Counted from the stretch's first letter, positions 3,443-41,556 are shown. The stretch is DNA of 51,837 nucleotides from an uncultured Opitutus sp. (GCA_964513055.1 CAZENI010000003.1:1-51837), one strand, 5' to 3'. Notes: a model not told the origin generated them from the sequence alone. Numbers and translations are program-made.

Positions 3443-6427
3443 TCAGAACGACACCGAGTTGGTCCAGACGAAGCCGCGCGGCTCGGCGGTGAAGCGCGCG
3501 GTGCGGGCATCGCCGGTGGAGCCGTTGGGCAGGATCTGGACTTGGTATTGGTTGAAGAGGTTCTCGATGTTGACCTGCGTGGACCACTCGTAGCGGCGCG
3601 CGAATTTGAAGCGATAGGCGAGCATCGCGTTGGCCCGGACGTAGTCGGGGGCGGAAAACATCCGGCGCTCGCTGCGGGTGACGACGCCCGCGGCGTCGCG
3701 GAAGACCTGCGTGTAGGGATAAGTGCGATCCTGCATGCGCAGGAAGATCGTGCCGCCGAGGGTGAGACCCTTCAGCCGGCCCTCGGTGAACGAATAGCTG
3801 TTGGTGAAGTTGGCGGAATATTTGGCGTAGCCCGAGGTGGGCTCGCCTTCCTGCGAGACGACGATGGAGCCGCCGTTGCCGTTGGGGTCGGTGAAACGAA
3901 GCTGGTGCGCTGAAAGCGGCAGGCCGCGTCGGCCGGTCCCGACGGGGGCGCCGGTCGCGCTCGTGGTGGTGAGGCGGAGCGCGGTGGCGTTGGTGATGCG
4001 GCCGCTGTCGGGATCGAGCACGGCGAAATACGGGCTCGCGGGATTGTTCATCATCGCGACGGTGAGTTGCTGGCGCGGGGCGGCGGGGTTGGCCTGCTGC
4101 GCGGGATCGACGGTGACGAGGAGCGGCGTGCCGTCGCCGTAGGTGACGCCGCCGCGGCCGTCGGTGTTGAACTCGTCGTTGTAGAAGATCGCATATTTCT
4201 TGGACTCGCCGACCTTGCCGTCGGTGAACGCGAGCGAGAAGCGGGCGCGCCAGTTGCGCACGGGCTGGGCCGTGAGGATGAGCTCGGCGCCCTTCGATTC
4301 GCGGTCGACGTTGATCCAATTCTGCGTGGGCGAATAGGCGCCATTGATGCCCGGCGGGTTGATATCGTCGCGGAGATCGGTGGCGATGGAGACCTGCTCG
4401 TCCTTCGACTTCACGGTGAAGACGCCGACGGAGCCGGAGAAGAAGCCGGACTTGGGATCGAACTTGAGGCCGAACTCGTGGCCGATGCTGTGCGCGGTCT
4501 GCGCCACCTCGCCGTGGGGACCGAACTGCACGATGTCGGGCGGGTTGAAGGCGTTCGAGTAGCCGTAGTAGGGACGGAGAAAGCGATTGAGCCGGTAGTT
4601 GGCGCCGAGATTGAGCGAGCCGGGCGATTTCTGGGAGCGCTTGGCGTCGCCGATCTCGTAGCGTTTGTTTTCGACGTTGTTGGTGCGGTAGCCAGCGAGC
4701 GTGGTGAAGCGGTCGCCGAACCAGTCGGTCTGCGCCGCGGCGTAATACGAATCGGTGTAGCCGCGCTGATCCCAGAAGCTGCCCGTGCCGCGCACGCCGA
4801 GGGGATTGGTGCGCGTCTGCGGGAGCGCGCCGGTCTCCACGCGCTCGCCGTAAACGTAGGTGAGGCCGTCCTGACCCTTGATGGTCTGGTCGCGCCGGCC
4901 GAAGGAGAGATACTCCAGCGGACCGTTGGCGAACGCGAACCACTGCACGGGCATCGGGGTGCGGCCGATGTTGGTGTTGTTGATCTGAGCCGGATTGACG
5001 ACGGCTTTGCCGCTGGCGTCGGCCAGATAGTAGAACTGCGAGCGGCGCTTGTTGTAGACCGTCTCGTAGGTGGCGCCGAGCAGCACCTGGTTGCGGGCGA
5101 GTCCGCCGAAGAGCGCAAACTCGCCGGCGAAATTGGCGCGATAGCCGCGGCGCGTGAAACTCTCGTGCGTGTTGCCGGGCTGGAAGCCGATGGCCCACTC
5201 GTTGAACGGATTGTTGTTTCGCAACGGCGCGACGAGGTTGGTGTAGGCATTGGGTTCGCCGCGATCCATGCCGCTCACATCATACATCGTCGCGAGCTGG
5301 ACCGTGCCGAAGCGGCCGACCTTCTGCTCGAGTGAAGTCTCGTAGTGGGTGTTCTCGCGCTTCGCGCCGTAGTAGGCGGTCCGCAGCGAGTCCACGTTGT
5401 CCCAGTGGAGCCGACCCCCCATGATGTCGCCGGCCTGGCCCTGCGCGACGAGGAGCCGGAGCCGCGCGCCGTTGCGCGGATCAGCGTTGAGCCGCACGCC
5501 GTTCACGGTGGCCGCGGGCATGCTGAGCGTCGTGCCGTTGTTGGATTGCACGGTCTCGGACAGCTTGCGCGAGGTCTCGACGCGGACCGTGGTGGTCTTG
5601 GTGGCCTGCACGGCGACCTGCGCGTGGACGCCGCGGGACTTGGCGCCGAAGAAGAGGCGTGACGTGCGCTGATCCTCCATCATGCCGGAGAGCCGCAGCG
5701 CGAGACGCTGGCCGCCGAGGCCGTAGTCGACCACCCCGCGCAGCGAACCGTTGTCGTCGGTGCGGAACTGGAGGCGCGTGAGGCGCGAGTTGAAGCGGGC
5801 CTGCTTGGAGATGGCGTTGACCACGCCACCTCCGCCCACCCCGCCGTTGAGCAACGACTGCGGGCCGCGCACCACATCGACACGCTCGGTGCTGAACGCG
5901 TCGTCGATGCCGCCGGCGCCGAAGGAGTTGATGCGCATCTGGCCGGCATCGAGGCCGCGGATCTTCACGTTGACGTTGGAGGCACGGTCGCCCGGGCGAT
6001 TGGATTCGGCAGTGCCCTCGGGATTCGCGCCGCCGACGCCGGTGCCGGTGCCGTAGTTGACGACCATCTCCTCGAGCGAGGTGGCGGCAATGTCGTCGAG
6101 AAACGACTCCGTGAAGACGTCGGCCGAGACGGGGAGCTTGGAGAGTTCGGCGCTGAAGCGCGTGACGGAGTTGGTGTTGAGCGCCGAGTAGGAATCCGTG
6201 CCGCTGGCGACGACGGCGAAGGGGCTGAGTGCGACGACTTCCTCGGCGGACTTGGTCGCGGTAGAATCGGAGGAGGTGGTCGCGGGCGTGGACGTTGGCG
6301 TGCTGGCGGGCCGGACGGGCGCGGCCTGCGCCAAGGCAAGCTGCGGGGAAAATGCAAACGGAAGCGTGGCCGCGAGCGTGAGGACACGGGCGCGAAGAAA
6401 CGACGCGCAGGGGTGGCTGGTCTTCAT
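3443..6427 (-). CDS. TonB-dependent receptor (Opitutaceae type), 994 aa
   Basis: Signal peptide, VVALSPFAV TonB-box-like motif, plug motifs IRG...ERVDVVRGPQSLL..G..GGVVN, beta-barrel ending QVNIENLFN...WTNSVSF with terminal Phe. Confidence 0.92.
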   Translation of the reverse strand: MKTSHPCASFLRARVLTLAATLPFAFSPQLALAQAAPVRPASTPTSTPATTSSDSTATKSAEEVVALSPFAVVASGTDSYSALNTNSVTRFSAELSKLPVSADVFTESFLDDIAATSLEEMVVNYGTGTGVGGANPEGTAESNRPGDRASNVNVKIRGLDAGQMRINSFGAGGIDDAFSTERVDVVRGPQSLLNGGVGGGGVVNAISKQARFNSRLTRLQFRTDDNGSLRGVVDYGLGGQRLALRLSGMMEDQRTSRLFFGAKSRGVHAQVAVQATKTTTVRVETSRKLSETVQSNNGTTLSMPAATVNGVRLNADPRNGARLRLLVAQGQAGDIMGGRLHWDNVDSLRTAYYGAKRENTHYETSLEQKVGRFGTVQLATMYDVSGMDRGEPNAYTNLVAPLRNNNPFNEWAIGFQPGNTHESFTRRGYRANFAGEFALFGGLARNQVLLGATYETVYNKRRSQFYYLADASGKAVVNPAQINNTNIGRTPMPVQWFAFANGPLEYLSFGRRDQTIKGQDGLTYVYGERVETGALPQTRTNPLGVRGTGSFWDQRGYTDSYYAAAQTDWFGDRFTTLAGYRTNNVENKRYEIGDAKRSQKSPGSLNLGANYRLNRFLRPYYGYSNAFNPPDIVQFGPHGEVAQTAHSIGHEFGLKFDPKSGFFSGSVGVFTVKSKDEQVSIATDLRDDINPPGINGAYSPTQNWINVDRESKGAELILTAQPVRNWRARFSLAFTDGKVGESKKYAIFYNDEFNTDGRGGVTYGDGTPLLVTVDPAQQANPAAPRQQLTVAMMNNPASPYFAVLDPDSGRITNATALRLTTTSATGAPVGTGRRGLPLSAHQLRFTDPNGNGGSIVVSQEGEPTSGYAKYSANFTNSYSFTEGRLKGLTLGGTIFLRMQDRTYPYTQVFRDAAGVVTRSERRMFSAPDYVRANAMLAYRFKFARRYEWSTQVNIENLFNQYQVQILPNGSTGDARTARFTAEPRGFVWTNSVSF

Positions 6428-28176: not shown

Positions 28177-30324
28177 TCACTCCGGCGGCAGTTCGTAGAT
28201 CTCGAGCAGCGCCTCGCCCGTCGCGCCGCTCACGCTGCGCACGAGGACCGTGTAGCCCTCGCCCGCCGCGAGGGTCACGACCACGGCGGCGTCCCGGCTG
28301 CCGGTCGCCATCGCCGCGGCTCCCGTCGCTTCGAACACCGGCGCGAGTTCCGCGTTCCAGTTGTCGTTCTCCGCGATCACCACCCCGTCGCTGCCGCGCA
28401 CCTCGAGCGCCGGATCCGCCAGCGCGTCCGACACGCCGAAAGCCACCAGTTGCGGCCCCATCGCCCGGATCAACAAGCGCTTGGTCCCCGTCCCCGTCAG
28501 GCTGAACCCGCCGATCAACACGTGCGCGGTTCCGTCGACCTGGGCGCGGGCCGAGAGGTTGACGATCCTGGACTGCGTTGACGGAGCGGGATCGTAGATC
28601 TCCATCAGCACCACGCCCGCCTCGGTCGCACGCGCGTGAGCCGTGCCGGGGCCGGAGGGCAAATCGACCACCAGCGCCGCATCCGCGCTGCCGCTCGGCA
28701 GGGGAAACGCGCCGAGCGCCGCAAACAATTCGGCGTCGCCGGCCTGCCAGTCGCCGTTCTCCGCCGTCATGACCGACGCCGCGTCGAACACCTCCAGCCG
28801 CGGGTCCACCACGCTATCCGGCACGCCAAAGGCCGCCAGGGTCGGGCCGACCGCCCGCAGCACCAGCGGCTTCGGGCCGGCGCTCTGAATCACAAAGCCC
28901 ACGTTGAGCACCGCGCGCGCCGACGGCAGCAGCGAGCGCACCGACAGGTTCGAGAGAAACGACTCCGGTTTCGGCGGCGTGACCGGCACGACCGGGATCT
29001 CCATCGGCGGAGACGTCACGGTCAGCGTCACCCCGCCGCTCGTGGTCGCGCCCAGGGCGTTCGCCACGAGAACGGAGTAGACCCCGCTGTCGGCGACGGT
29101 CGCCGCGAGGATCGAGAACGTCGCGTTCGTGGCCTGCGGAATGGCCACGCCATCCTTCAGCCATTGGTAGGAAAACGGCGCGGTGCCCGCGGCGGTGGCG
29201 GCCACGACGAAGCTCTCGCCGGACCGCACCGTGGTCGTCGAGGCGGCGACGCTCAAACCCACGATGGGGGCCGACGGCGGCGCGATGAACTCGATCTCCC
29301 ATTTGGAAATCCCTCCGACATAGAGCCGCGCAATCTGGCCGGCGCGGCGATCGGTGCCACCGGCCTCGAGCCCCATCACCTGCGGATAGAAAAAATACCA
29401 ACCGGGGAACTGCGACTTATCGAGAATCTTGCGCGGCTCCGACCACGACTCCGGCCGGCCGAGTTCGGTGGAATACGAAACATACACACCCTCCTGCGCC
29501 CAGCCGGGCTCTCCCGCGGCGCGATTCAGCAGCATCACAAAGCAGTTGAGATGGGTGTTCCAATGCACCGACGGCCCCCACAGCGCATCGGGGGCGAGCG
29601 CCTGCCAAGGCCTGCGCACCCGGAAGATGGGCGTCACGCGTCCGCCGATGCCGGGTTCCTGCCAGGTGCCGTTGTAGTATTTCCAGACCTTGCCCACGGG
29701 ATTGAAGCGGTCCGCAAACGCCATGCGCGCGATGCAGACTCCCTGGGTGCTCTCCGGCCCGCCGTAGTTGTCGAAGAGGAAATAAAAATAGGAGCGGTCG
29801 CGGTCGAGGGTGACCGTGAAATCGCCATGGCCCCCGGCGAAATAGCCGTTGCCCGCTTCCGGATCGAGCGGGTCGCCCGATTCGAGCACGACCCCGAGGT
29901 CGATCAGCGTGGAGCCGCCATCGAGCGAAATCACCGCCCCGATCTTCGGCGCCGTGAGCGTCGAGTCCGGGATCAGGTTGAGCGGCTCGCCATGATACCA
30001 ACCCCAGAGCACGCCGTTTTCCTCCGGCCAGACCGACTCCAGCCAGTGGGGATAGGCGTTGGACGTCTCCAGGCCGACCTCCCGCGTTTCCCACGGCCCG
30101 AACTGATCCGGTCCCACGCTCAGCGACGGGCCGCCATGCGACCCAAACCAGTGAAGCTTTCCATCCCGCCAAAACGCCGGGCTGTTGCTGTCGATCGCCG
30201 TCGGCATCGACACCCGGCTTGCCGGCCGCACCACCGCTTCCTGACCACCGGCGCGACTCCCCAGGCCGAGCACGGCGAGCCCCAGCAGCAAGACGTCGAG
30301 AAACCGGCGCGCAGGGTGGAGCAT
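28177..30324 (-). CDS. Secreted protein: beta-propeller glycoside-hydrolase-like domain + Ig domain + twin Opitutaceae C-terminal domains
   Basis: ATG 30324, signal peptide; IDSNSPAFW, AGGHGDF, WGPSVHWN; Ig motif YQWLKDG...DSGVYSV; two NLSxR...LRAxGP...ExY repeats. Confidence 0.78.
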   Translation of the reverse strand: MLHPARRFLDVLLLGLAVLGLGSRAGGQEAVVRPASRVSMPTAIDSNSPAFWRDGKLHWFGSHGGPSLSVGPDQFGPWETREVGLETSNAYPHWLESVWPEENGVLWGWYHGEPLNLIPDSTLTAPKIGAVISLDGGSTLIDLGVVLESGDPLDPEAGNGYFAGGHGDFTVTLDRDRSYFYFLFDNYGGPESTQGVCIARMAFADRFNPVGKVWKYYNGTWQEPGIGGRVTPIFRVRRPWQALAPDALWGPSVHWNTHLNCFVMLLNRAAGEPGWAQEGVYVSYSTELGRPESWSEPRKILDKSQFPGWYFFYPQVMGLEAGGTDRRAGQIARLYVGGISKWEIEFIAPPSAPIVGLSVAASTTTVRSGESFVVAATAAGTAPFSYQWLKDGVAIPQATNATFSILAATVADSGVYSVLVANALGATTSGGVTLTVTSPPMEIPVVPVTPPKPESFLSNLSVRSLLPSARAVLNVGFVIQSAGPKPLVLRAVGPTLAAFGVPDSVVDPRLEVFDAASVMTAENGDWQAGDAELFAALGAFPLPSGSADAALVVDLPSGPGTAHARATEAGVVLMEIYDPAPSTQSRIVNLSARAQVDGTAHVLIGGFSLTGTGTKRLLIRAMGPQLVAFGVSDALADPALEVRGSDGVVIAENDNWNAELAPVFEATGAAAMATGSRDAAVVVTLAAGEGYTVLVRSVSGATGEALLEIYELPPE

Positions 30325-31355: not shown

Positions 31356-31446
31356 GGGGTTTCTGAATACGGCGCCGGCCCGCCACCGCAATGGCAATGA
31401 CGACCTGCGGGGCCGGCCCCGCGGCATTCATGCCTCGTCGCTGCTC

Positions 31447-31491
31447 GCGTGAGCGAGCGGGCGGATCGTCACTCGCTCACGCTCGCGGCCA
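31447..31491. repeat. Dispersed REP-like hairpin, copy 2
   Basis: 11-bp perfect IR GCGTGAGCGAG (31447-31457) / CTCGCTCACGC (31472-31482); shares blocks with 17458-17490. Confidence 0.65.
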
Positions 31492-31538
31492 CGCTCCCAC
31501 GCCGCCAGAGTGACCGCCCGCCAACCGCCGCCGAAAAA

Positions 31539-32219
31539 CTACCGGCGCGATCCCGCACCGATCGGTTGACGCGAACGCGTCGTGCCAGGGTAGCGGGCGT
31601 CCAGCAGACTGACTATAGCGGCCTTCAGCTTCTTGAGTTGCTCGGCCGATTTCAACGGCTGGGGTGGTTTCGTGCCGGCGTCGTTGGGCGATTGATCGTC
31701 TCCGTCACCTAGAGGCTCGCACTTCCGCTGCCAAAGACGGGGCGGGCTGAACTCGAAGAGTTCCAGTGCCGCGGTAACGGGATTCTCGTCCTCCCGCCGC
31801 TTCGAACAGGTGGTGACGAAGCGCTTTAGTATCGCCCGACAACCCGGCAAAAACCTCCGATCATACGACTTCACGTTGATCGTGCGAAGATCGCGCAGAT
31901 TGAAAGGCAGCGATTCGCTCTCCTCGAGCAATGGGATCGCGTGCAGCCCCGTCGCGTGCCGGATCCCGAGTTCATACAGCACATTCGGATTCCATCCCGT
32001 GATGTCTGCGATCACCAAGTCCTCCGTCATCAGCCGCCGCACCACCTCTCGTGTGATGAGTCCCGATTCGCGAATCTCATCCGCCCTCACCACCGAATAA
32101 CCGCACTGGTCGCAAACCGGCCGCACCAGATTCCGCAGTATCCAGTTGGAGCGCCGCCGCACGGCGCTCTGCTCCGGTCCGAACGGAGAAATCACGAAAC
32201 AGCTCTTCCGTTTCTTCAC
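31539..32219 (-). CDS. Nucleoside 2-deoxyribosyltransferase/deoxyribohydrolase-like (TIR-like fold) protein
   Basis: GTG start 9 nt after the upstream stop; CFVISPFG, VVRADEI, DLVIADITGWNPNVLYELGIRHA, LPFNLRDLRTI. Confidence 0.85.
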   Translation of the reverse strand: MKKRKSCFVISPFGPEQSAVRRRSNWILRNLVRPVCDQCGYSVVRADEIRESGLITREVVRRLMTEDLVIADITGWNPNVLYELGIRHATGLHAIPLLEESESLPFNLRDLRTINVKSYDRRFLPGCRAILKRFVTTCSKRREDENPVTAALELFEFSPPRLWQRKCEPLGDGDDQSPNDAGTKPPQPLKSAEQLKKLKAAIVSLLDARYPGTTRSRQPIGAGSRR

Positions 32220-32228
32220 GGTCCCGAT

Positions 32229-33806
32229 TTATTCCGGCTTCGGCTTTGGCGCCTCACGGCTTTTCTCGATCTGGTTCAGGAATCGGTTCACGGCTTTTTT
32301 CACCTCTGCTTCGGGATCGCGCTCGTCAAATTCGTGCCGCAGGAGGTCGGCGATGTCGGCATGCAACGGCGCCTTCCGCTCCCGCAGCAGGAGCACCCGC
32401 TGGCCGCGCGAAAGGAAAAACCCAAGCTCCAAGGCGACGTTGGCATTGGCACTCGCAAACACCCCGCGTTTCTTGGCGGCCCGCCGCTCTCGTTGCGGCA
32501 ACGGCGACTTCGACTCACGCATGTGCACGGCGATGCCTTGGCAACTCGAGAGCATGTTGATCAACATGTTTCCCCACAGGTTCGGCAGAAAGGATCGGTC
32601 GTCGTCGTCGGTCCGGATCGCGAAGTAACCCCGCCGGCTGCAGGCGCCCCTGATTGCCTCGAGAACCCGCTGATACCGCTTTTCTTTGCGGAATGGCATC
32701 ATCACGAAGACCGTCTTTTCAAACGGCGTCTTGCTCCAGATTGCTTCCAGCAATTTCTCGTGGCTGACGAACATCTCGTGCTGCTTCTGAAATCGCAGGT
32801 ATATCTTCAGGTCCCGATCGAGCGCCACGGCGGTATAGAGGGCCTTCTGCCCGCGTGAGAGCAGCATCTCCGTCAACGACACGGCACAGGATTCCACTTC
32901 GTCCGGTCCCAGCAACCTGAGCCCGACCGCGCAAGCCTTGGCCAGGACGTGATAAAATTCTCCCTGCGGCGCTGCACCGCCATATTCGTGTAGCAATTTC
33001 GGCAATTCCTTGGCCTTGGTCGCCAGCGCGAACAACTCGGAAACCGCCGCCTCGGCGATGACCCGCGCCTCGCTGTCGGCAGGGTCGCTCAGGATGTCCT
33101 CGATCAGGTAGATGTGCCAAAGCAGCGTCTCCGACGAGAACTTGTAGCCCTTGACCGCCTCGACCAGTCGCGTCCGGATTGCCTTCAATTCCGGCGGAAC
33201 GGGAAGATCCGCCGGGGCTGCACGACGGAGAAAATAGTAGAAGCCGAGTTGGTTGGCGCTCAGTCGCGAGTCGCGCGAAGTCCGGTCGAGAAACGCGACC
33301 GCCGCACGCAAGGGTTGGGCAAACATGGGATGGTCGACGCGCAGCAGCGTCTTCACACACCACAACGTTGAGAAGAAATCCCCGCCGTGTAGAAACGCGG
33401 TGTAACAGGTGAACTGGCCGTCCGCCAACTGCGAGGGCAGGATCCGCTCCTCGATCAGCCTGGCAACGTCATCCGACCCGGGGCGAAGTCGCGCGAAGGT
33501 ATCGATGCAAAACTGGGAATATAATACATCACTCTTCGGATTCAGCATCCAGCCGAGGATCGTGTCGTTGTAGTAGGAAAAGAGCGCCGGATTGAGCGCG
33601 CACAGCAACTCCACGAGATGATGCATCGCAGGCAGGTGCGGCGATACCGCCCCGCCGGGGTCGCGGGCCAGAATCTCCCCGGTCGGAGTAACCTGCTGAA
33701 TGAGCGAGGACGCGATGTTCGCGACGTGCGCCTGGAGGTTGCGCTTGTGATCTGCTTTCATGTTGGCGGCGACGAAGGAGAGTTCCTGCAGGACTGACGT
33801 CGCCAT
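32229..33806 (-). CDS. Fusion of an N-terminal all-helical (prenyltransferase/alpha-alpha toroid-like) domain and a C-terminal NDT/deoxyribohydrolase (TIR-like) domain
   Basis: ATG 33806. QLADGQF...DFFSTLWCVKTL resembles a prenyltransferase/QW repeat. C-terminal TVFVMMPF, AIRTDD, NANVALELGFFLSRGQRVLLLRE, LHADI. Confidence 0.75.
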   Translation of the reverse strand: MATSVLQELSFVAANMKADHKRNLQAHVANIASSLIQQVTPTGEILARDPGGAVSPHLPAMHHLVELLCALNPALFSYYNDTILGWMLNPKSDVLYSQFCIDTFARLRPGSDDVARLIEERILPSQLADGQFTCYTAFLHGGDFFSTLWCVKTLLRVDHPMFAQPLRAAVAFLDRTSRDSRLSANQLGFYYFLRRAAPADLPVPPELKAIRTRLVEAVKGYKFSSETLLWHIYLIEDILSDPADSEARVIAEAAVSELFALATKAKELPKLLHEYGGAAPQGEFYHVLAKACAVGLRLLGPDEVESCAVSLTEMLLSRGQKALYTAVALDRDLKIYLRFQKQHEMFVSHEKLLEAIWSKTPFEKTVFVMMPFRKEKRYQRVLEAIRGACSRRGYFAIRTDDDDRSFLPNLWGNMLINMLSSCQGIAVHMRESKSPLPQRERRAAKKRGVFASANANVALELGFFLSRGQRVLLLRERKAPLHADIADLLRHEFDERDPEAEVKKAVNRFLNQIEKSREAPKPKPE

Positions 33807-34291
33807 CGCCCGGCCATGGCGCCGGTCGTTGGCGGAAACTAGAATGGAGCGGAGAAGCCACCGTCGCGTGAAGCTGCGCGGACGGAATTCACCTGAAGCT
33901 AGGCTGACGAGCACCGGGTAGAAACTTGAAGGACGAGAAACGAGGTCCGACTCGGCCCCGAATGACAAGTCTGGATGCTGCGCATCGCTTGTAGCGGCAG
34001 CCCATCACTGAAGTCGCGCTAATTGCCGTTTTATATACGACTATGTAGTTTTTCCCCGCCGGATGCCACCACGTCAGCCACTCGTGCCGCGAGTGCTGGG
34101 CTGATCCGGGTCGGAACTGGGTCCGGCGAGCGATGCAAGCGCGGCCCGAAGGACCGCTGCAGGGAGAATCGGCGCGCACCCGCCGCGACAGCGCCGTCAG
34201 CAATCGCCCGCGCCCCGCTACGCATTACCGCGCTGCGCGCTTCGGTCGTTTCCCTTTGCGCCGGCCCGCTCGCGTCCAAGTCTGCCGCTCC

Positions 34292-38410: not shown

Positions 38411-39970
38411 TCAGCGCTCCGGCGGCGTCCGCACCAGCAAGCGGTCGTTGATCACCGCGACGCGGATGCCTCGCGCGACGGCAAACTCCACCAGGTCGCT
38501 CGTGCGATTGATGAAGCCCTTTCCCTTGAAATTGAGCGAGGTGTTGCACAGCACGCCCGTGCCGGTCTCCGCCTTGAACGCCGTGAGCAAAGCGTGCAGG
38601 CGGGGGTTTTCGTCGCGCGTCACCGTCTGCGCCCGCGCGGAACCGTCGACATGCGTCACGGCGGCGAGCCGCGGGTTTTTCACGCGCTGAAAATACAGCA
38701 TGTGCGGGCTGTCCAGATGACCGTCGAAATGCAGCGACGCCTCCTCCCGCAGGCAGACCGGCGCGACCGGACGGTAATCCTCGCGCTCCTTGATGCGGTT
38801 CAGCTCGATCTCCATCGCCTTCGCGAAGGGCGCGGCGAGCAGCGAGCGATTGCCCAGCGCGCGCGGGCCGATCTCGTAGCGGCCCTGGACCCAGGCGATC
38901 ACGTGCCCCTGCGCGAGCAGCCCCGCCACCGTGTCGAGGTGCAGCGGCGAAACCTCCCAGCCGGCCGGATCCGGGCAATCCTCGACGAACTCCTCCCCGG
39001 CATAAACCGACCACGCGATCTTCGCCTGGCCGGTCAGGAGGTATTGCGCCTCCACCGCCGTGCCGATCGCGCTGCCGCTGTCGTTGGCGCAGGGCGGGAC
39101 GAACACGTCGGCAAACAGCCCCGAGTCCCGCCAGCGCGCGTTCCATTCGCAGTTCAAGCCGCAGCCGCCGCTGATCAGCAGCGGGAGTTTCTCCTTGAGA
39201 TGCTCCGCCGCGAAATCGTGAAACCGCGCAAAGAGCCGGTTCGTGAATTTCCGCGCGAAATCCCGGAACGCCTGGCTCTCCAGTCCGATGTCGAAAAACG
39301 GCGTGCGCAGCGGAAACGCCATCTTTTCAATGGGCAGGTGGTGTTCGTTCAACTGATCCGAGCGGGCCTCCGGGTATTGGAACAGGTAATCGTCGAGCAC
39401 CCGTTCGTCCGGGGTCAGCGCGGAGTCGGTGCCAAATCCCGCCAGCGCCATGAGTTTTCCCGCCATGTCATGCGGGTGTTCGAAATTCCGGCGCGTCCGA
39501 TCCGCGATGCCGAACAGCCATGAATAGCGCATGCCGGGACACGTCAGGACGGGAAACTTTTCGATCTGCAGCCGCTCGCCGATGCGATAAAAGGCGCCGA
39601 GGCCGCCCTCCCAGACCAGCGCGTAACATGGCCGGCCCTGCTCGAAGGGCGACATCGCGTAGGTCCCGAAGAGATGGGACTTTTCATGCGTCGAGGAAAA
39701 ATACTCGACCCGCTGGCCGCAGAACTGGCGGTGCGATCGCGCCGCGGGTCCGATGCCATAGTAGCCCTGGCCGAGTCCCACCCAGCCGCCGAGCGCGATC
39801 GCATCCGGCAGCGCCGGCAGCCGCTCAAACGTTTTCCACGCCCCGGGGATCGTGAGCCAGCTGTAGCGCCGGTGTGAGTCCTTCTCTTCCTCGATCGAGA
39901 ACTCCAGTTTCCCGTCGCACAGCGAGGCCACCGTGCCGTCGTGCGCCGGCTTGAAGCCCAGGATTCTCAT
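38411..39970 (-). CDS. CmcH/NodU-family O-carbamoyltransferase (motifs intact)
   Basis: KPAHDG, THEKSH, GKLMALA, SGGCGLNCEWN, NDSGSAIG, GPRALGNRSLLA, IKEREDYRPVAP, THVDGSARAQTV, NTSLN. Confidence 0.93.
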   Translation of the reverse strand: MRILGFKPAHDGTVASLCDGKLEFSIEEEKDSHRRYSWLTIPGAWKTFERLPALPDAIALGGWVGLGQGYYGIGPAARSHRQFCGQRVEYFSSTHEKSHLFGTYAMSPFEQGRPCYALVWEGGLGAFYRIGERLQIEKFPVLTCPGMRYSWLFGIADRTRRNFEHPHDMAGKLMALAGFGTDSALTPDERVLDDYLFQYPEARSDQLNEHHLPIEKMAFPLRTPFFDIGLESQAFRDFARKFTNRLFARFHDFAAEHLKEKLPLLISGGCGLNCEWNARWRDSGLFADVFVPPCANDSGSAIGTAVEAQYLLTGQAKIAWSVYAGEEFVEDCPDPAGWEVSPLHLDTVAGLLAQGHVIAWVQGRYEIGPRALGNRSLLAAPFAKAMEIELNRIKEREDYRPVAPVCLREEASLHFDGHLDSPHMLYFQRVKNPRLAAVTHVDGSARAQTVTRDENPRLHALLTAFKAETGTGVLCNTSLNFKGKGFINRTSDLVEFAVARGIRVAVINDRLLVRTPPER

Positions 39971-41556
39971 GACGCGAGGCCGGCGCGTTCCCGGAGCAGC
40001 GCGGTGCGGACAAAGAGCCGGTCGTTGATGACCGCGACGCCGATGCCCCGCTGGGTGGCGAATTTCATCAGGTCGGTCGTGCGATTGATGAGGCCCTTGC
40101 CTTTGAAGTTAAGCGAGGCGTGGGCCAGCACGCCCGTGCCCGTCGCCGCCTGGAAGGCGGTGAGCAGGGCGTGCAGGCGGGGATTCTCCGCGGACGTGAC
40201 CGTCTGGGCCGAGGCGGTGCCGTCGACGCGCGTCACGGCGGCGAGACGCGGATTCTTCACGCGCTGAAAAAACATCCGGTGCGGGCTGTCCAGGTGGCCC
40301 TCGAAGTGCTCCGCCGCCTCCTCCCGCCGGCAGACCGGCGTGATCGCGTGGTAGTCCTCGCGGTCCTTGATGCGATTCAGCTCGCCCGCCATCGCGCGCT
40401 CAAACGGCGCCGCGAGCAGCGCACGGTTGCCCAGCGCGCGCGGCCCGATCTCGTAGCGCCCCTGCACCCAGGCGATCACGTTGCCCTGCGCCAGCAGCGT
40501 CGCCACCGTCTCCAGGTTCAACGGCGACGCCACCCAGCCCTGGACCCCCGGCCAGTCCTCGACGAACTCCTCGCCCGCGTAAACCGACCACGCGATCTTC
40601 GCCTGGCCGGTCAGGACATATTGCGCCTCGGCCGCCGTCCCGATCGCGTTCCCGCTGTCGTTCGCGCACGGCGGCACAAACACGTCGGCAAACAGCCCCG
40701 AGTCCCGCCAGCGCGCGTTCCACTCGCCATGCAAGCCGCCCCCGCCGGCGATCAGGAGCGGGAGTTTCTCAGTGAGATTTTCCGCGGCAAAAGCCTGGAA
40801 GCGCTCGAACAACTCGTCCGTGAGCCTCCGCGCGACATCCTTGAATTCCTGGGTGCGCACACCGCACCGGACAAACGGCGACCCCGGCAGCAGGCGGTCC
40901 TTTTCCGGCGCCAGCAGCTCGTCCAGTTGCTCCTTCGTCTCGCAGCGAGGATCCAGCAGTCGATCGAGCAGCCTGCGTTCCGCGGGACTGGCGGCCGACC
41001 GACGCCCGCCTCCCGCCAGGGCGAGCACTTTTTCCGCCCGCGCCCTCTCCTCCTCGCGGTCGCCCATCGGTTCCGACGAGGTGTCCGCCAGATAATGGAG
41101 GTAGCCGTAACGGCGGCCTGGCGCCGCCAGCACATCCGGAAAACGCCGGATCCTCATCTTCTCGTCGATGCGGTAGAAGGCGCCGATGTGTCGCTCGCAG
41201 ACGAGGGCATAGCAGGGCCGCCCCGCCTCGAACGGCGACAGCGCATACGCGCCAAAGAGGTGCCCTTTCTCGTGCGTCGAATGAAACCACTCCACCGTGC
41301 GCCCGAAGGCGCTGCCGGTCGCGCGGGCCGGTGGACCGAGGCCGTGGTCGCCGCCCCCGGCGGCGCGCCGGTTGCTCACCGCAAATATATCCGGCACGCC
41401 GGGGAGCCGCTCGAGACAATGCAGAAATCCGGGCAGCGACACCACGTTGCTCCGCCGTCGGGAGTCCTTTTCCTCCTCGATCGAGAATTCGAGCCTTCCG
41501 TCGCAGACGGAGACTGTCGTTCCGTCTTGACCGGGCTTGAAGGCAAGGATCCGCAT
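39967..41556 (-). CDS. CmcH/NodU-family carbamoyltransferase paralog with degenerate catalytic motifs
   Basis: Full-length and collinear with 38411-39970, with an ATGA overlap. Substituted motifs: KPGQDG, AEKVLALA, GGGGLHG, YHAITP, TRVDGTAS, HASLN. Confidence 0.88.
   Translation of the reverse strand: MRILAFKPGQDGTTVSVCDGRLEFSIEEEKDSRRRSNVVSLPGFLHCLERLPGVPDIFAVSNRRAAGGGDHGLGPPARATGSAFGRTVEWFHSTHEKGHLFGAYALSPFEAGRPCYALVCERHIGAFYRIDEKMRIRRFPDVLAAPGRRYGYLHYLADTSSEPMGDREEERARAEKVLALAGGGRRSAASPAERRLLDRLLDPRCETKEQLDELLAPEKDRLLPGSPFVRCGVRTQEFKDVARRLTDELFERFQAFAAENLTEKLPLLIAGGGGLHGEWNARWRDSGLFADVFVPPCANDSGNAIGTAAEAQYVLTGQAKIAWSVYAGEEFVEDWPGVQGWVASPLNLETVATLLAQGNVIAWVQGRYEIGPRALGNRALLAAPFERAMAGELNRIKDREDYHAITPVCRREEAAEHFEGHLDSPHRMFFQRVKNPRLAAVTRVDGTASAQTVTSAENPRLHALLTAFQAATGTGVLAHASLNFKGKGLINRTTDLMKFATQRGIGVAVINDRLFVRTALLRERAGLAS

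What the first reader, a model, noticed from the sequence alone, without database searches (positions are those of the whole stretch)
31539..33806. Candidate novel anti-phage system: two-gene operon encoding two NDT/deoxyribohydrolase (TIR-like) domains
Seen: two co-directional genes 9 nt apart with no signal peptides. Each has the FV..PF / R.D / N.NV..ELG / L..(D/N) signature with the putative catalytic Glu retained; one is stand-alone (226 aa) and one is fused behind a ~350-aa helical domain. Established: TIR and nucleoside-deoxyribosyltransferase/deoxyribohydrolase domains share a flavodoxin-like fold with a catalytic Glu and act as nucleotide-cleaving signal generators or effectors in conflict systems such as Thoeris and CBASS. 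Inference: a sensor-enzyme plus partner-enzyme pair that depletes or converts nucleotides on infection. I do not recognise this architecture from named systems.
Basis: partly seen in the sequence, partly recalled or inferred. Interest (0 to 1): 0.82.

Follow-up and report, generated by a model that had tools for sequence, protein, structure and literature searches.

The report
Cyclase-like ring fused to TIR-like enzyme
A rare, mobile bacterial gene fuses a predicted ring of helices shaped like a terpene cyclase to a TIR-like domain that would destroy NAD+, and it likely works alone as a phage sensor and cell-killing enzyme; the second TIR-like gene beside it was found with it only in this genome.

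Summary
Both genes are real: 9 nt apart, low in GC, each with a TIR/NDT-like (DRHyd) domain and its putative catalytic Glu. The pair is not conserved. No gene-B-type ORF lies at any of 20 loci of gene A relatives or in 5 whole genomes that carry A, and B-type genes occur in 15 of 300 family genomes with no full-length A. The conserved unit is gene A. It is a predicted (alpha/alpha)6 toroid (Z about 18 to monodomain terpene cyclases, no conserved DxDD), a helical stalk and a PF10137-like domain with Glu460 invariant in 29 of 29 rows. About 23 relatives span distant phyla. A strong defence gene lies within 5 kb at 6 of 11 loci, against 1 of 15 control regions. No partner gene is constant. Most likely A is a single-protein sensor-NADase, like Swarozyc or TIR-V/IX but with a sensor fold my searches did not find reported fused to TIR, and B is a separate co-inserted effector. 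A local A-B partnership stays open: weak complex support (0.45, best control 0.00) and an unusually diverged TIR domain here. Nothing was tested at the bench.

The parts
32229..33806 (-). Gene A: toroid-stalk-TIR-like fusion (525 aa; likelier start ATG 33761, 510 aa). The conserved unit.
32892..33764 (-). Predicted (alpha/alpha)6 toroid, residues about 15-305; QW-like motif SQLADGQF followed by GGDFFSTLW; predicted sensor
   Evidence: VIA Z 17.9, rmsd 3.6, 261 aligned to 8paj; Z 18.1 to 8pak and 17.9 to MstE; Foldseek also lists complement C3d/C4d
32727..32891 (-). Helical stalk between toroid and enzyme domain (residues about 306-360)
   Evidence: secondary structure of the model
32262..32726 (-). 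TIR/DRHyd-like domain of A (residues about 361-515), Glu460 at 32427-32429
   Evidence: E460 in 29 of 29 rows; 13 of 15 relatives over the PF10137 cut-off; the window copy itself has no Pfam hit; Foldseek TIR-STING 9lmq, E 6e-3
31539..32219 (-). Gene B: stand-alone NDT/DRHyd-like protein, 226 aa; domain in residues about 4-143 (31791-32210), Asp72 and Glu83, then a low-confidence tail with one helix. Not a conserved partner of A.
31436..31493 (.). Hairpin downstream of B; a 20-24 nt part recurs at 7 other places in the genome (REP-like, label from recall); likely not part of the system

Best explanation
Gene A likely encodes a self-contained anti-phage protein in which a predicted ring-shaped helical domain would sense a phage component and switch on a fused TIR-like domain predicted to cleave NAD+, stopping the infected cell; gene B is likely a separate NDT-like defence enzyme that arrived in the same low-GC insertion. 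Shown: the fusion is conserved, rare and patchy, keeps its Glu, lies beside varied defence genes and has no constant partner. Predicted from models: the toroid and TIR-like folds. Inferred from known TIR/DRHyd effectors: NAD+ as substrate, activation by oligomerisation through the stalk, abortive infection. Least certain: the trigger; I favour direct binding of a phage protein over a small-molecule signal (about 60:40).
For: Architecture: 26 of 26 toroid hits of 430 aa or more also carry the TIR-like domain (24 without two duplicates, the window's own included). Enzyme: E460, N456, N413 and D401 invariant in 29 of 29 rows. Modularity: the same TIR subfamily is fused elsewhere to pentapeptide, HEAT, DUF4062, kinase, HAD or acylphosphatase domains, and in a quick tree toroid-fused and other-fused copies interleave (at least 3 changes forced). 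The toroid is more variable (mean identity 0.28-0.35) than the enzyme domain (0.42-0.57), as expected of a sensor. Context: PADLOC hit at E<=1e-10 over 70% or more of a profile within 5 kb at 6 of 11 independent loci: pAgo class II (L002), type II RM (L003), Gabija plus type IIG RM (L008), PDC-M68/Lamassu-like (L018), ThsB (L021), short pAgo (L023); 1 of 15 control regions; Fisher p 0.02. L001 and L022 add HSDR_N genes by Pfam. Mobility: L001 and L002 genes are 93% identical in DNA with different neighbours; toroid found in 1 of 400 other genomes of the phylum and 0 of 400 others in the order of L001. Independence from B. Precedent: single-protein TIR-like NADases with an auxiliary domain, portal-activated (bioRxiv 10.64898/2026.05.01.722283, abstract and first third of Results; PMC11350192, passages); DrHyd domains as NADase effectors (PMC9503650, passages).
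Against: No bench data. 5 of 11 loci have no strict defence hit, L004 lies among arginine-synthesis and housekeeping genes, and the window has no defence gene other than B among the 10 flanking genes scanned. The enrichment criterion was set after seeing the hits, and the controls come from three genomes of the window's family, not the relatives' taxa. NDT/DRHyd domains also act on CMP or dNMPs, so the substrate may not be NAD+. The window's copy has the most diverged TIR domain of 17 compared (0.42 against 0.45-0.57) while its toroid is average, and the A-B complex prediction gave weak support (0.45, best control 0.00); both fit a local partnership or decay. No trigger was identified.
Confidence: 0.55

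Rival explanations
1. In this genome A and B work as a pair: A senses and its altered TIR-like domain recruits or signals to B, which does the nucleotide cleavage.
For: 9-nt gap, same strand, shared low GC. Complex prediction 0.45 against best control 0.00, runs agree in at least 69% of contacts, partner pLDDT at least 73; the mark was reached by 116 of 157 solved and 2 of 215 mismatched pairs, but at 0.60 or under by only 18 solved pairs and both mismatches. A's TIR domain is selectively diverged here and both domains have long branches, 0.96 and 1.11 against a median of 0.42. B-type domains are fused to a Cap12-type TIR in 3 of 120 listed hits (P0171, P0174, P0211) and doubled in 3 more.
Against: 0 of 20 relative loci (9 independent ones with 1 kb or more downstream) and 0 of 5 genomes have a B-type gene; 15 of 300 family genomes have B-type genes and none has full-length A. 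The two domains are homologous and such domains self-associate in solved structures, so the weak pass may come from likeness. One genome only; relaxed selection also gives long branches.
Confidence: 0.2
2. A is an orphan effector whose toroid binds a nucleotide signal made by another system (Thoeris, CBASS, Pycsar), as Cap12 and PycTIR do.
For: Relatives score as PF10137. The toroid keeps polar residues near the starts of its helices (H62/H63, D143, S146/T147, E236/D237), which could line a pocket. L021 lies directly behind a ThsB gene. The window's genome has 4 SMODS matches on other contigs.
Against: No signal-making gene is a constant neighbour: ThsB at 1 of 11 loci, no CD-NTase or PycC gene among the neighbours scanned. 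SMODS over the cut-off in only 1 of 5 other A-bearing genomes (genomes may be incomplete).
Confidence: 0.15
3. A is a metabolic enzyme, a terpene-cyclase-like or glycosidase-like toroid joined to a nucleotide N-glycosidase, with no role in defence.
For: Best fold matches are monodomain class II terpene cyclases; a QW-like motif aligns weakly with abietadiene synthase (E 0.03); L004 is in a housekeeping context.
Against: No conserved DxDD (2 of 29 rows have the pattern, at unrelated places); identity to cyclases 8-13%; glycosidases and epimerases tie within about 1 Z; no terpenoid or sugar pathway gene is a recurring neighbour; patchy spread and defence neighbours.
Confidence: 0.1

Closest known systems
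Swarozyc / DUF4062 single-gene TIR-like NADases (bioRxiv 10.64898/2026.05.01.722283; abstract and first third of Results read)
   Same: One protein, TIR/NDT-related domain with a catalytic Glu, helical stalk and auxiliary domain, patchy spread, varied defence neighbours.
   Different: Not DUF4062 (no PF13271 hit in A or the relatives scanned); enzyme domain is C-terminal; auxiliary domain is a toroid; activity and trigger untested.
Cap12 (TIR-STING) and PycTIR effectors, PF10137
   Same: Relatives exceed the PF10137 cut-off; ligand-binding-type domain fused to a TIR; Foldseek lists TIR-STING.
   Different: No STING, SAVED or cNMP-binding domain, no adjacent cyclase; Cap12-type domains sit on a long separate branch (4.15) in the quick tree.
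APE system (alpha-alpha toroid, ParA, effector; bioRxiv 10.64898/2026.10.19.760177, section 21 read)
   Same: A complement-TED-related alpha-alpha toroid proposed as a sensor, followed by a long helix; TIR is one of its effectors.
   Different: APE is three genes with ParA and a separate effector; here toroid and enzyme are one protein and no ParA was seen. Kinship of the two toroids could not be tested (supplement closed).
E. coli TIR-V and TIR-IX single-protein systems (PMC11350192, passages read)
   Same: Single-gene TIR defence triggered by a phage protein.
   Different: Described there as having only a short TIR domain; no toroid mentioned in the passages seen.
Thoeris type VIII ThsI (CMP-hydrolase plus TPR; bioRxiv 10.64898/2025.12.03.692087, section 5 and passages read) and retron Ec86 NDT-like effector (bioRxiv 10.1101/2023.08.16.553469, passages read)
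   Same: NDT/MilB-like domain with a catalytic Glu used as a defence effector, as predicted for B.
   Different: B has no TPR, no ThsB-type TIR and no retron beside it.
Monodomain class II terpene cyclases (MstE, 8PAJ/8PAK) and complement thioester domain
   Same: (alpha/alpha)6 toroid fold, Z 14-18.
   Different: 8-13% identity; no conserved DxDD; no conserved Cys-x-x-Gln thioester motif seen in the alignment (motif from recall).

Membership tests
TIR/DRHyd (NDT-like) superfamily | Five-stranded flavodoxin-like fold | tested here: met
   B model: MilB Z 14.3 (rmsd 3.1, 139 aligned), NDT 13.3, TIR-STING 13.0. A: beta-alpha pattern in the model, Foldseek TIR-STING, homologous to B; A's domain was not folded alone.
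TIR/DRHyd (NDT-like) superfamily | Conserved Glu on the helix after strand 3 | tested here: met
   A E460 in 29 of 29; B E83 in 6 of 6, aligned with the YELG of DNPH1
TIR/DRHyd (NDT-like) superfamily | N-glycosidic cleavage of NAD+ or a nucleotide | not testable with these tools
   needs an enzyme assay
CBASS Cap12 / Pycsar PycTIR | PF10137 TIR domain | tested here: inconclusive
   13 of 15 relatives over the cut-off; window copy has no hit
CBASS Cap12 / Pycsar PycTIR | STING, SAVED or cNMP-binding sensor fused to the TIR | tested here: not met
   N-terminal part is a toroid; no such Pfam hit in 19 members
CBASS Cap12 / Pycsar PycTIR | Adjacent CD-NTase or PycC cyclase | tested here: not met
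   None among the window's flanking genes; the divergent kinase matches PycC/PycTIR models only through its cNMP-binding domain and has 72-79% identical orthologues in the genus without A or B
Thoeris (any type) | ThsB-type signalling TIR next to a constant effector | tested here: not met
   No ThsB hit for A or B; pair not conserved; ThsB neighbour at L021 only
APE system | ParA gene in a three-gene neighbourhood | tested here: not met
   No ParA among the window's flanking genes or the neighbours scanned at relative loci; not every ORF of every locus was scanned
APE system | TED-related toroid with a conserved Ser/Thr at the thioester position | not testable with these tools
   APE sequences are in a closed supplement; model coordinates not available for mapping
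Swarozyc (DUF4062) | PF13271 DUF4062 domain | tested here: not met
   No hit for A, B or toroid-fused relatives
Class II terpene cyclase | DxD/DxDD catalytic acid motif (PMC12414744, passages) | tested here: not met
   No conserved DxDD in 29 rows; consensus shows only single conserved acids

The most novel reading that the evidence does not exclude
A toroid related to terpene cyclases and the complement thioester domain is the pattern-recognition receptor of a new NAD+-depleting immune protein, and in this genome it has recruited a second NDT-like enzyme into a heteromeric, paired-TIR complex: a two-gene system caught as it forms from a one-gene system.
Probability: 0.15. Interest if true: 0.78.

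Novelty: new variant of a known kind. Interest (0 to 1): 0.52.

Why it matters
If right, it adds a new sensor fold, the (alpha/alpha)6 toroid of terpene cyclases and complement C3d, to the sensors that switch on TIR-like NADases, and names a single gene that can be tested directly. The large Thoeris survey set aside stand-alone TIR genes, so proteins like this are under-examined. It would also be a second bacterial lineage, beside the proposed APE system, using a toroid for immune sensing. The family is rare (about two dozen known members), which limits its ecological weight.

Tried and rejected
Conserved two-gene operon: rejected. Local duplication of one domain: rejected; BLASTP between A and B gives 14 of 44 identities and they fall on separate sides of the quick tree (the careful tree did not finish). 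Pfam and NCBIfam give nothing for A or B; PDB sequence searches give nothing for either single protein and only weak profile hits. A 21-nt imperfect inverted repeat (31522-31542 / 34045-34065) flanks the cassette, but 5 of 120 random flank pairs do as well and it has no second copy in the genome: not taken as transposon ends. No clean empty site: gene order is shuffled in relatives, though neither gene lies near 4 DUF4159 orthologues or 7 kinase homologues. No relative of A in viral contigs or phage records; plasmids give only the TIR-like domain, 10 records. ESM Atlas: toroid hits 0.85-0.87 (squalene-cyclase/prenyltransferase/TED clusters, leads only) and one unnamed 465-aa cluster at 0.91 for relative P0020. 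Promoter and terminator scans were at chance level. No RNA holder listed. No earlier scan findings. Literature searches without a paper on a toroid-TIR fusion: 'TIR domain + toroid + anti-phage + prenyltransferase' 0 papers; 'TIR + squalene + defense system + phage + NADase' 0; some searches gave listings, of which only the APE preprint mentions a toroid. Subscription journals and bioRxiv supplements were not seen; Burroughs and Aravind 2020 (J Bacteriol) was seen only as a citation. Loci dropped before the defence count: L007, L012, L013, L020, L028, L078 (under 2 kb of flank; L013 has a HicA gene) and duplicates L010, L011, L024, L151.

Full report
Observation. Two minus-strand genes lie at 32229-33806 (A, 525 aa; likelier start 33761) and 31539-32219 (B, 226 aa), 9 nt apart. 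They have GC 0.60-0.61 and GC3 0.73-0.78 in a 0.69 GC window, between a DUF4159 gene and a divergent cNMP-binding histidine kinase. Contigs from one study match the listed pieces exactly and bridge the junctions, though they may be the source samples.

Gene B. Pfam and NCBIfam give no hit; PADLOC gives a partial match to a TIR effector model, E 2e-10. Its model (pLDDT 68 overall, core higher) matches MilB (Z 14.3), NDTs (13.3) and TIR-STING (13.0), nearly tied. It belongs to a large family (1276 hits) with variable tails; Asp72, Asn79 and Glu83 are invariant in 6 of 6 aligned. Some members are doubled or fused to a Cap12-type TIR. B-type domains occur in 15 of 300 other genomes of the window's family, and a second one lies elsewhere in this genome.

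Gene A. Nine full-length or near-full-length relatives came and more; all 26 toroid hits of 430 aa or more carry both domains (24 without duplicates; 8 shorter toroid-only hits of 81-278 aa are probably fragments, not checked one by one). The model (pLDDT 80.7) has an (alpha/alpha)6 toroid in residues about 15-305, closest to monodomain class II terpene cyclases (Z 17.9-18.1, rmsd 3.6-3.7) with glycosidases and epimerases within about 1 Z and complement C4d at 14.2. It keeps a QW-like motif and GGDxFSTLW but no conserved DxDD, so I read it as a non-cyclase toroid. A helical stalk leads to a TIR/DRHyd-like domain: Glu460 is invariant in 29 of 29 rows, 13 of 15 relatives pass the PF10137 cut-off, and the profile is homologous to B's (96.5%) but lacks B's strand-3 Asp. 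The same enzyme subfamily carries many other N-terminal domains and interleaves with them in a quick tree, the usual pattern of swapped sensors on a shared effector.

Is the pair conserved? No. Neither a B-type nor a second A-type ORF was found at 20 loci of A relatives; 9 independent loci have 1 kb or more downstream. L021 has a ThsB gene upstream, a different TIR family. Five whole genomes with A have no B-type match, while the window's genome gives two (the genomes may be incomplete). None of 300 family genomes has full-length A.

Context of A. Named records are Labilibaculum, Puteibacter and two Thermoanaerobaculia. The toroid was found in 1 of 400 other genomes of the window's phylum (same element as L023) and 0 of 400 others in the order of L001. 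Of 11 independent loci with 2 kb or more of flank, 6 have a PADLOC hit at E<=1e-10 over 70% or more of the profile within 5 kb (pAgo twice, type II RM, Gabija with type IIG RM, PDC-M68, ThsB). L001 and L022 have HSDR_N genes by Pfam; L004, L009 and L017 have none recognised. Of 15 evenly spaced 11.5-kb control regions from three complete genomes of the family, 1 met the same rule and 4 had any hit at E<=1e-10; Fisher p 0.02. The rule was set after the hits were seen, neighbours at the test loci were chosen by eye, and the controls are not taxon-matched, so this is moderate evidence. Integrases, recombinases or IS fragments lie near L002, L003, L008 and L021. L001 and L002 are 93% identical in DNA (63 synonymous, 38 non-synonymous codon differences) in different neighbourhoods.

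Mechanism. Most likely (0.55) A is a one-protein system: the toroid would bind a phage component, the stalk would bring the TIR-like domains together, and NAD+ cleavage would abort the infection. Fusion, Glu, mobility and neighbours are shown; folds are predicted; substrate, oligomerisation and trigger are inferred from Swarozyc, TIR-V/IX and the DrHyd literature. B is then a second, independent NDT-like effector in a small insertion.

In the window, A's enzyme domain is the most diverged of 17 compared (mean identity 0.42 against 0.45-0.57) while its toroid is average (0.32). A complex prediction of A with B's domain scored 0.45 against 0.00 for the best of three controls, with at least 69% contact agreement and partner pLDDT at least 73; such a pass was reached at 0.60 or under by 18 of 157 solved pairs and by both of the 2 of 215 mismatches that passed, so it is weak. 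The two domains are homologous to self-associating solved enzymes, so likeness may explain it. I give the local pair 0.2, an orphan signal-activated effector 0.15 and a metabolic role 0.1.

Known systems. A fails membership of CBASS/Pycsar (no such sensor, no adjacent cyclase), Thoeris, Swarozyc and class II cyclases, but works like a single-gene sensor-NADase. The APE system is the only toroid precedent found; it needs ParA and keeps the effector separate, and its supplement was closed, so kinship is open. Searches found no report of a toroid-TIR fusion; subscription papers and preprint supplements were not seen.

Verdict. Real genes, right superfamily, wrong unit. A new domain architecture of a known kind of defence protein, rare and untested. 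Interest 0.52.

Noticed in passing
G000:C163:9117-14519 (another contig of the window's genome): Three SMODS/CD-NTase matches within 4 kb in a GC 0.57 stretch, with a patatin-like gene, an E2-like gene and a SLATT-like gene by eye (labels from recall): a dense CBASS-like cluster.
   Followed up: partly
P0171, P0174, P0211; P0165, P0166, P0169: B-type NDT-like domain fused through a coiled coil to a Cap12-type TIR (first three; P0211's C-terminal part matches PADLOC PDC-S35), or two B-type domains in one protein (last three); the Glu is kept in both domains where the sequence is complete.
   Followed up: partly
window 38414-41556: Two tandem carbamoyltransferase paralogues; the one at 39970-41556 has only a short match to the N-terminal domain.
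   Followed up: no
L023 / L151 (G501:C2): Toroid-TIR gene followed by a REase-short pAgo pair, a deaminase and a PDC-S15 gene, next to a 1493-aa Prim-Pol plus DNA polymerase A fusion: a mobile element with defence cargo.
   Followed up: partly
L001:7233-9872; L002:9105-9938; L022:1402-3318; L017:1772-3262 and 3703-4443: Unclassified neighbours that may be defence genes: an 879-aa HSDR_N plus AAA protein, and 277-, 639-, 496- and 246-aa ORFs with no Pfam or PADLOC hit.
   Followed up: no
L029:68-3327: A B-type gene and an A-type TIR gene (no toroid) separated by a small membrane-like ORF and a trypsin-like peptidase: the only other locus with both domain types close together.
   Followed up: partly
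window 28180-30312: Secreted-looking protein with an unassigned N-terminal domain, one Ig domain and a repeated C-terminal module.
   Followed up: no
L028, L078: Toroid-TIR genes broken into several frames; sequencing error or decay not told apart.
   Followed up: no
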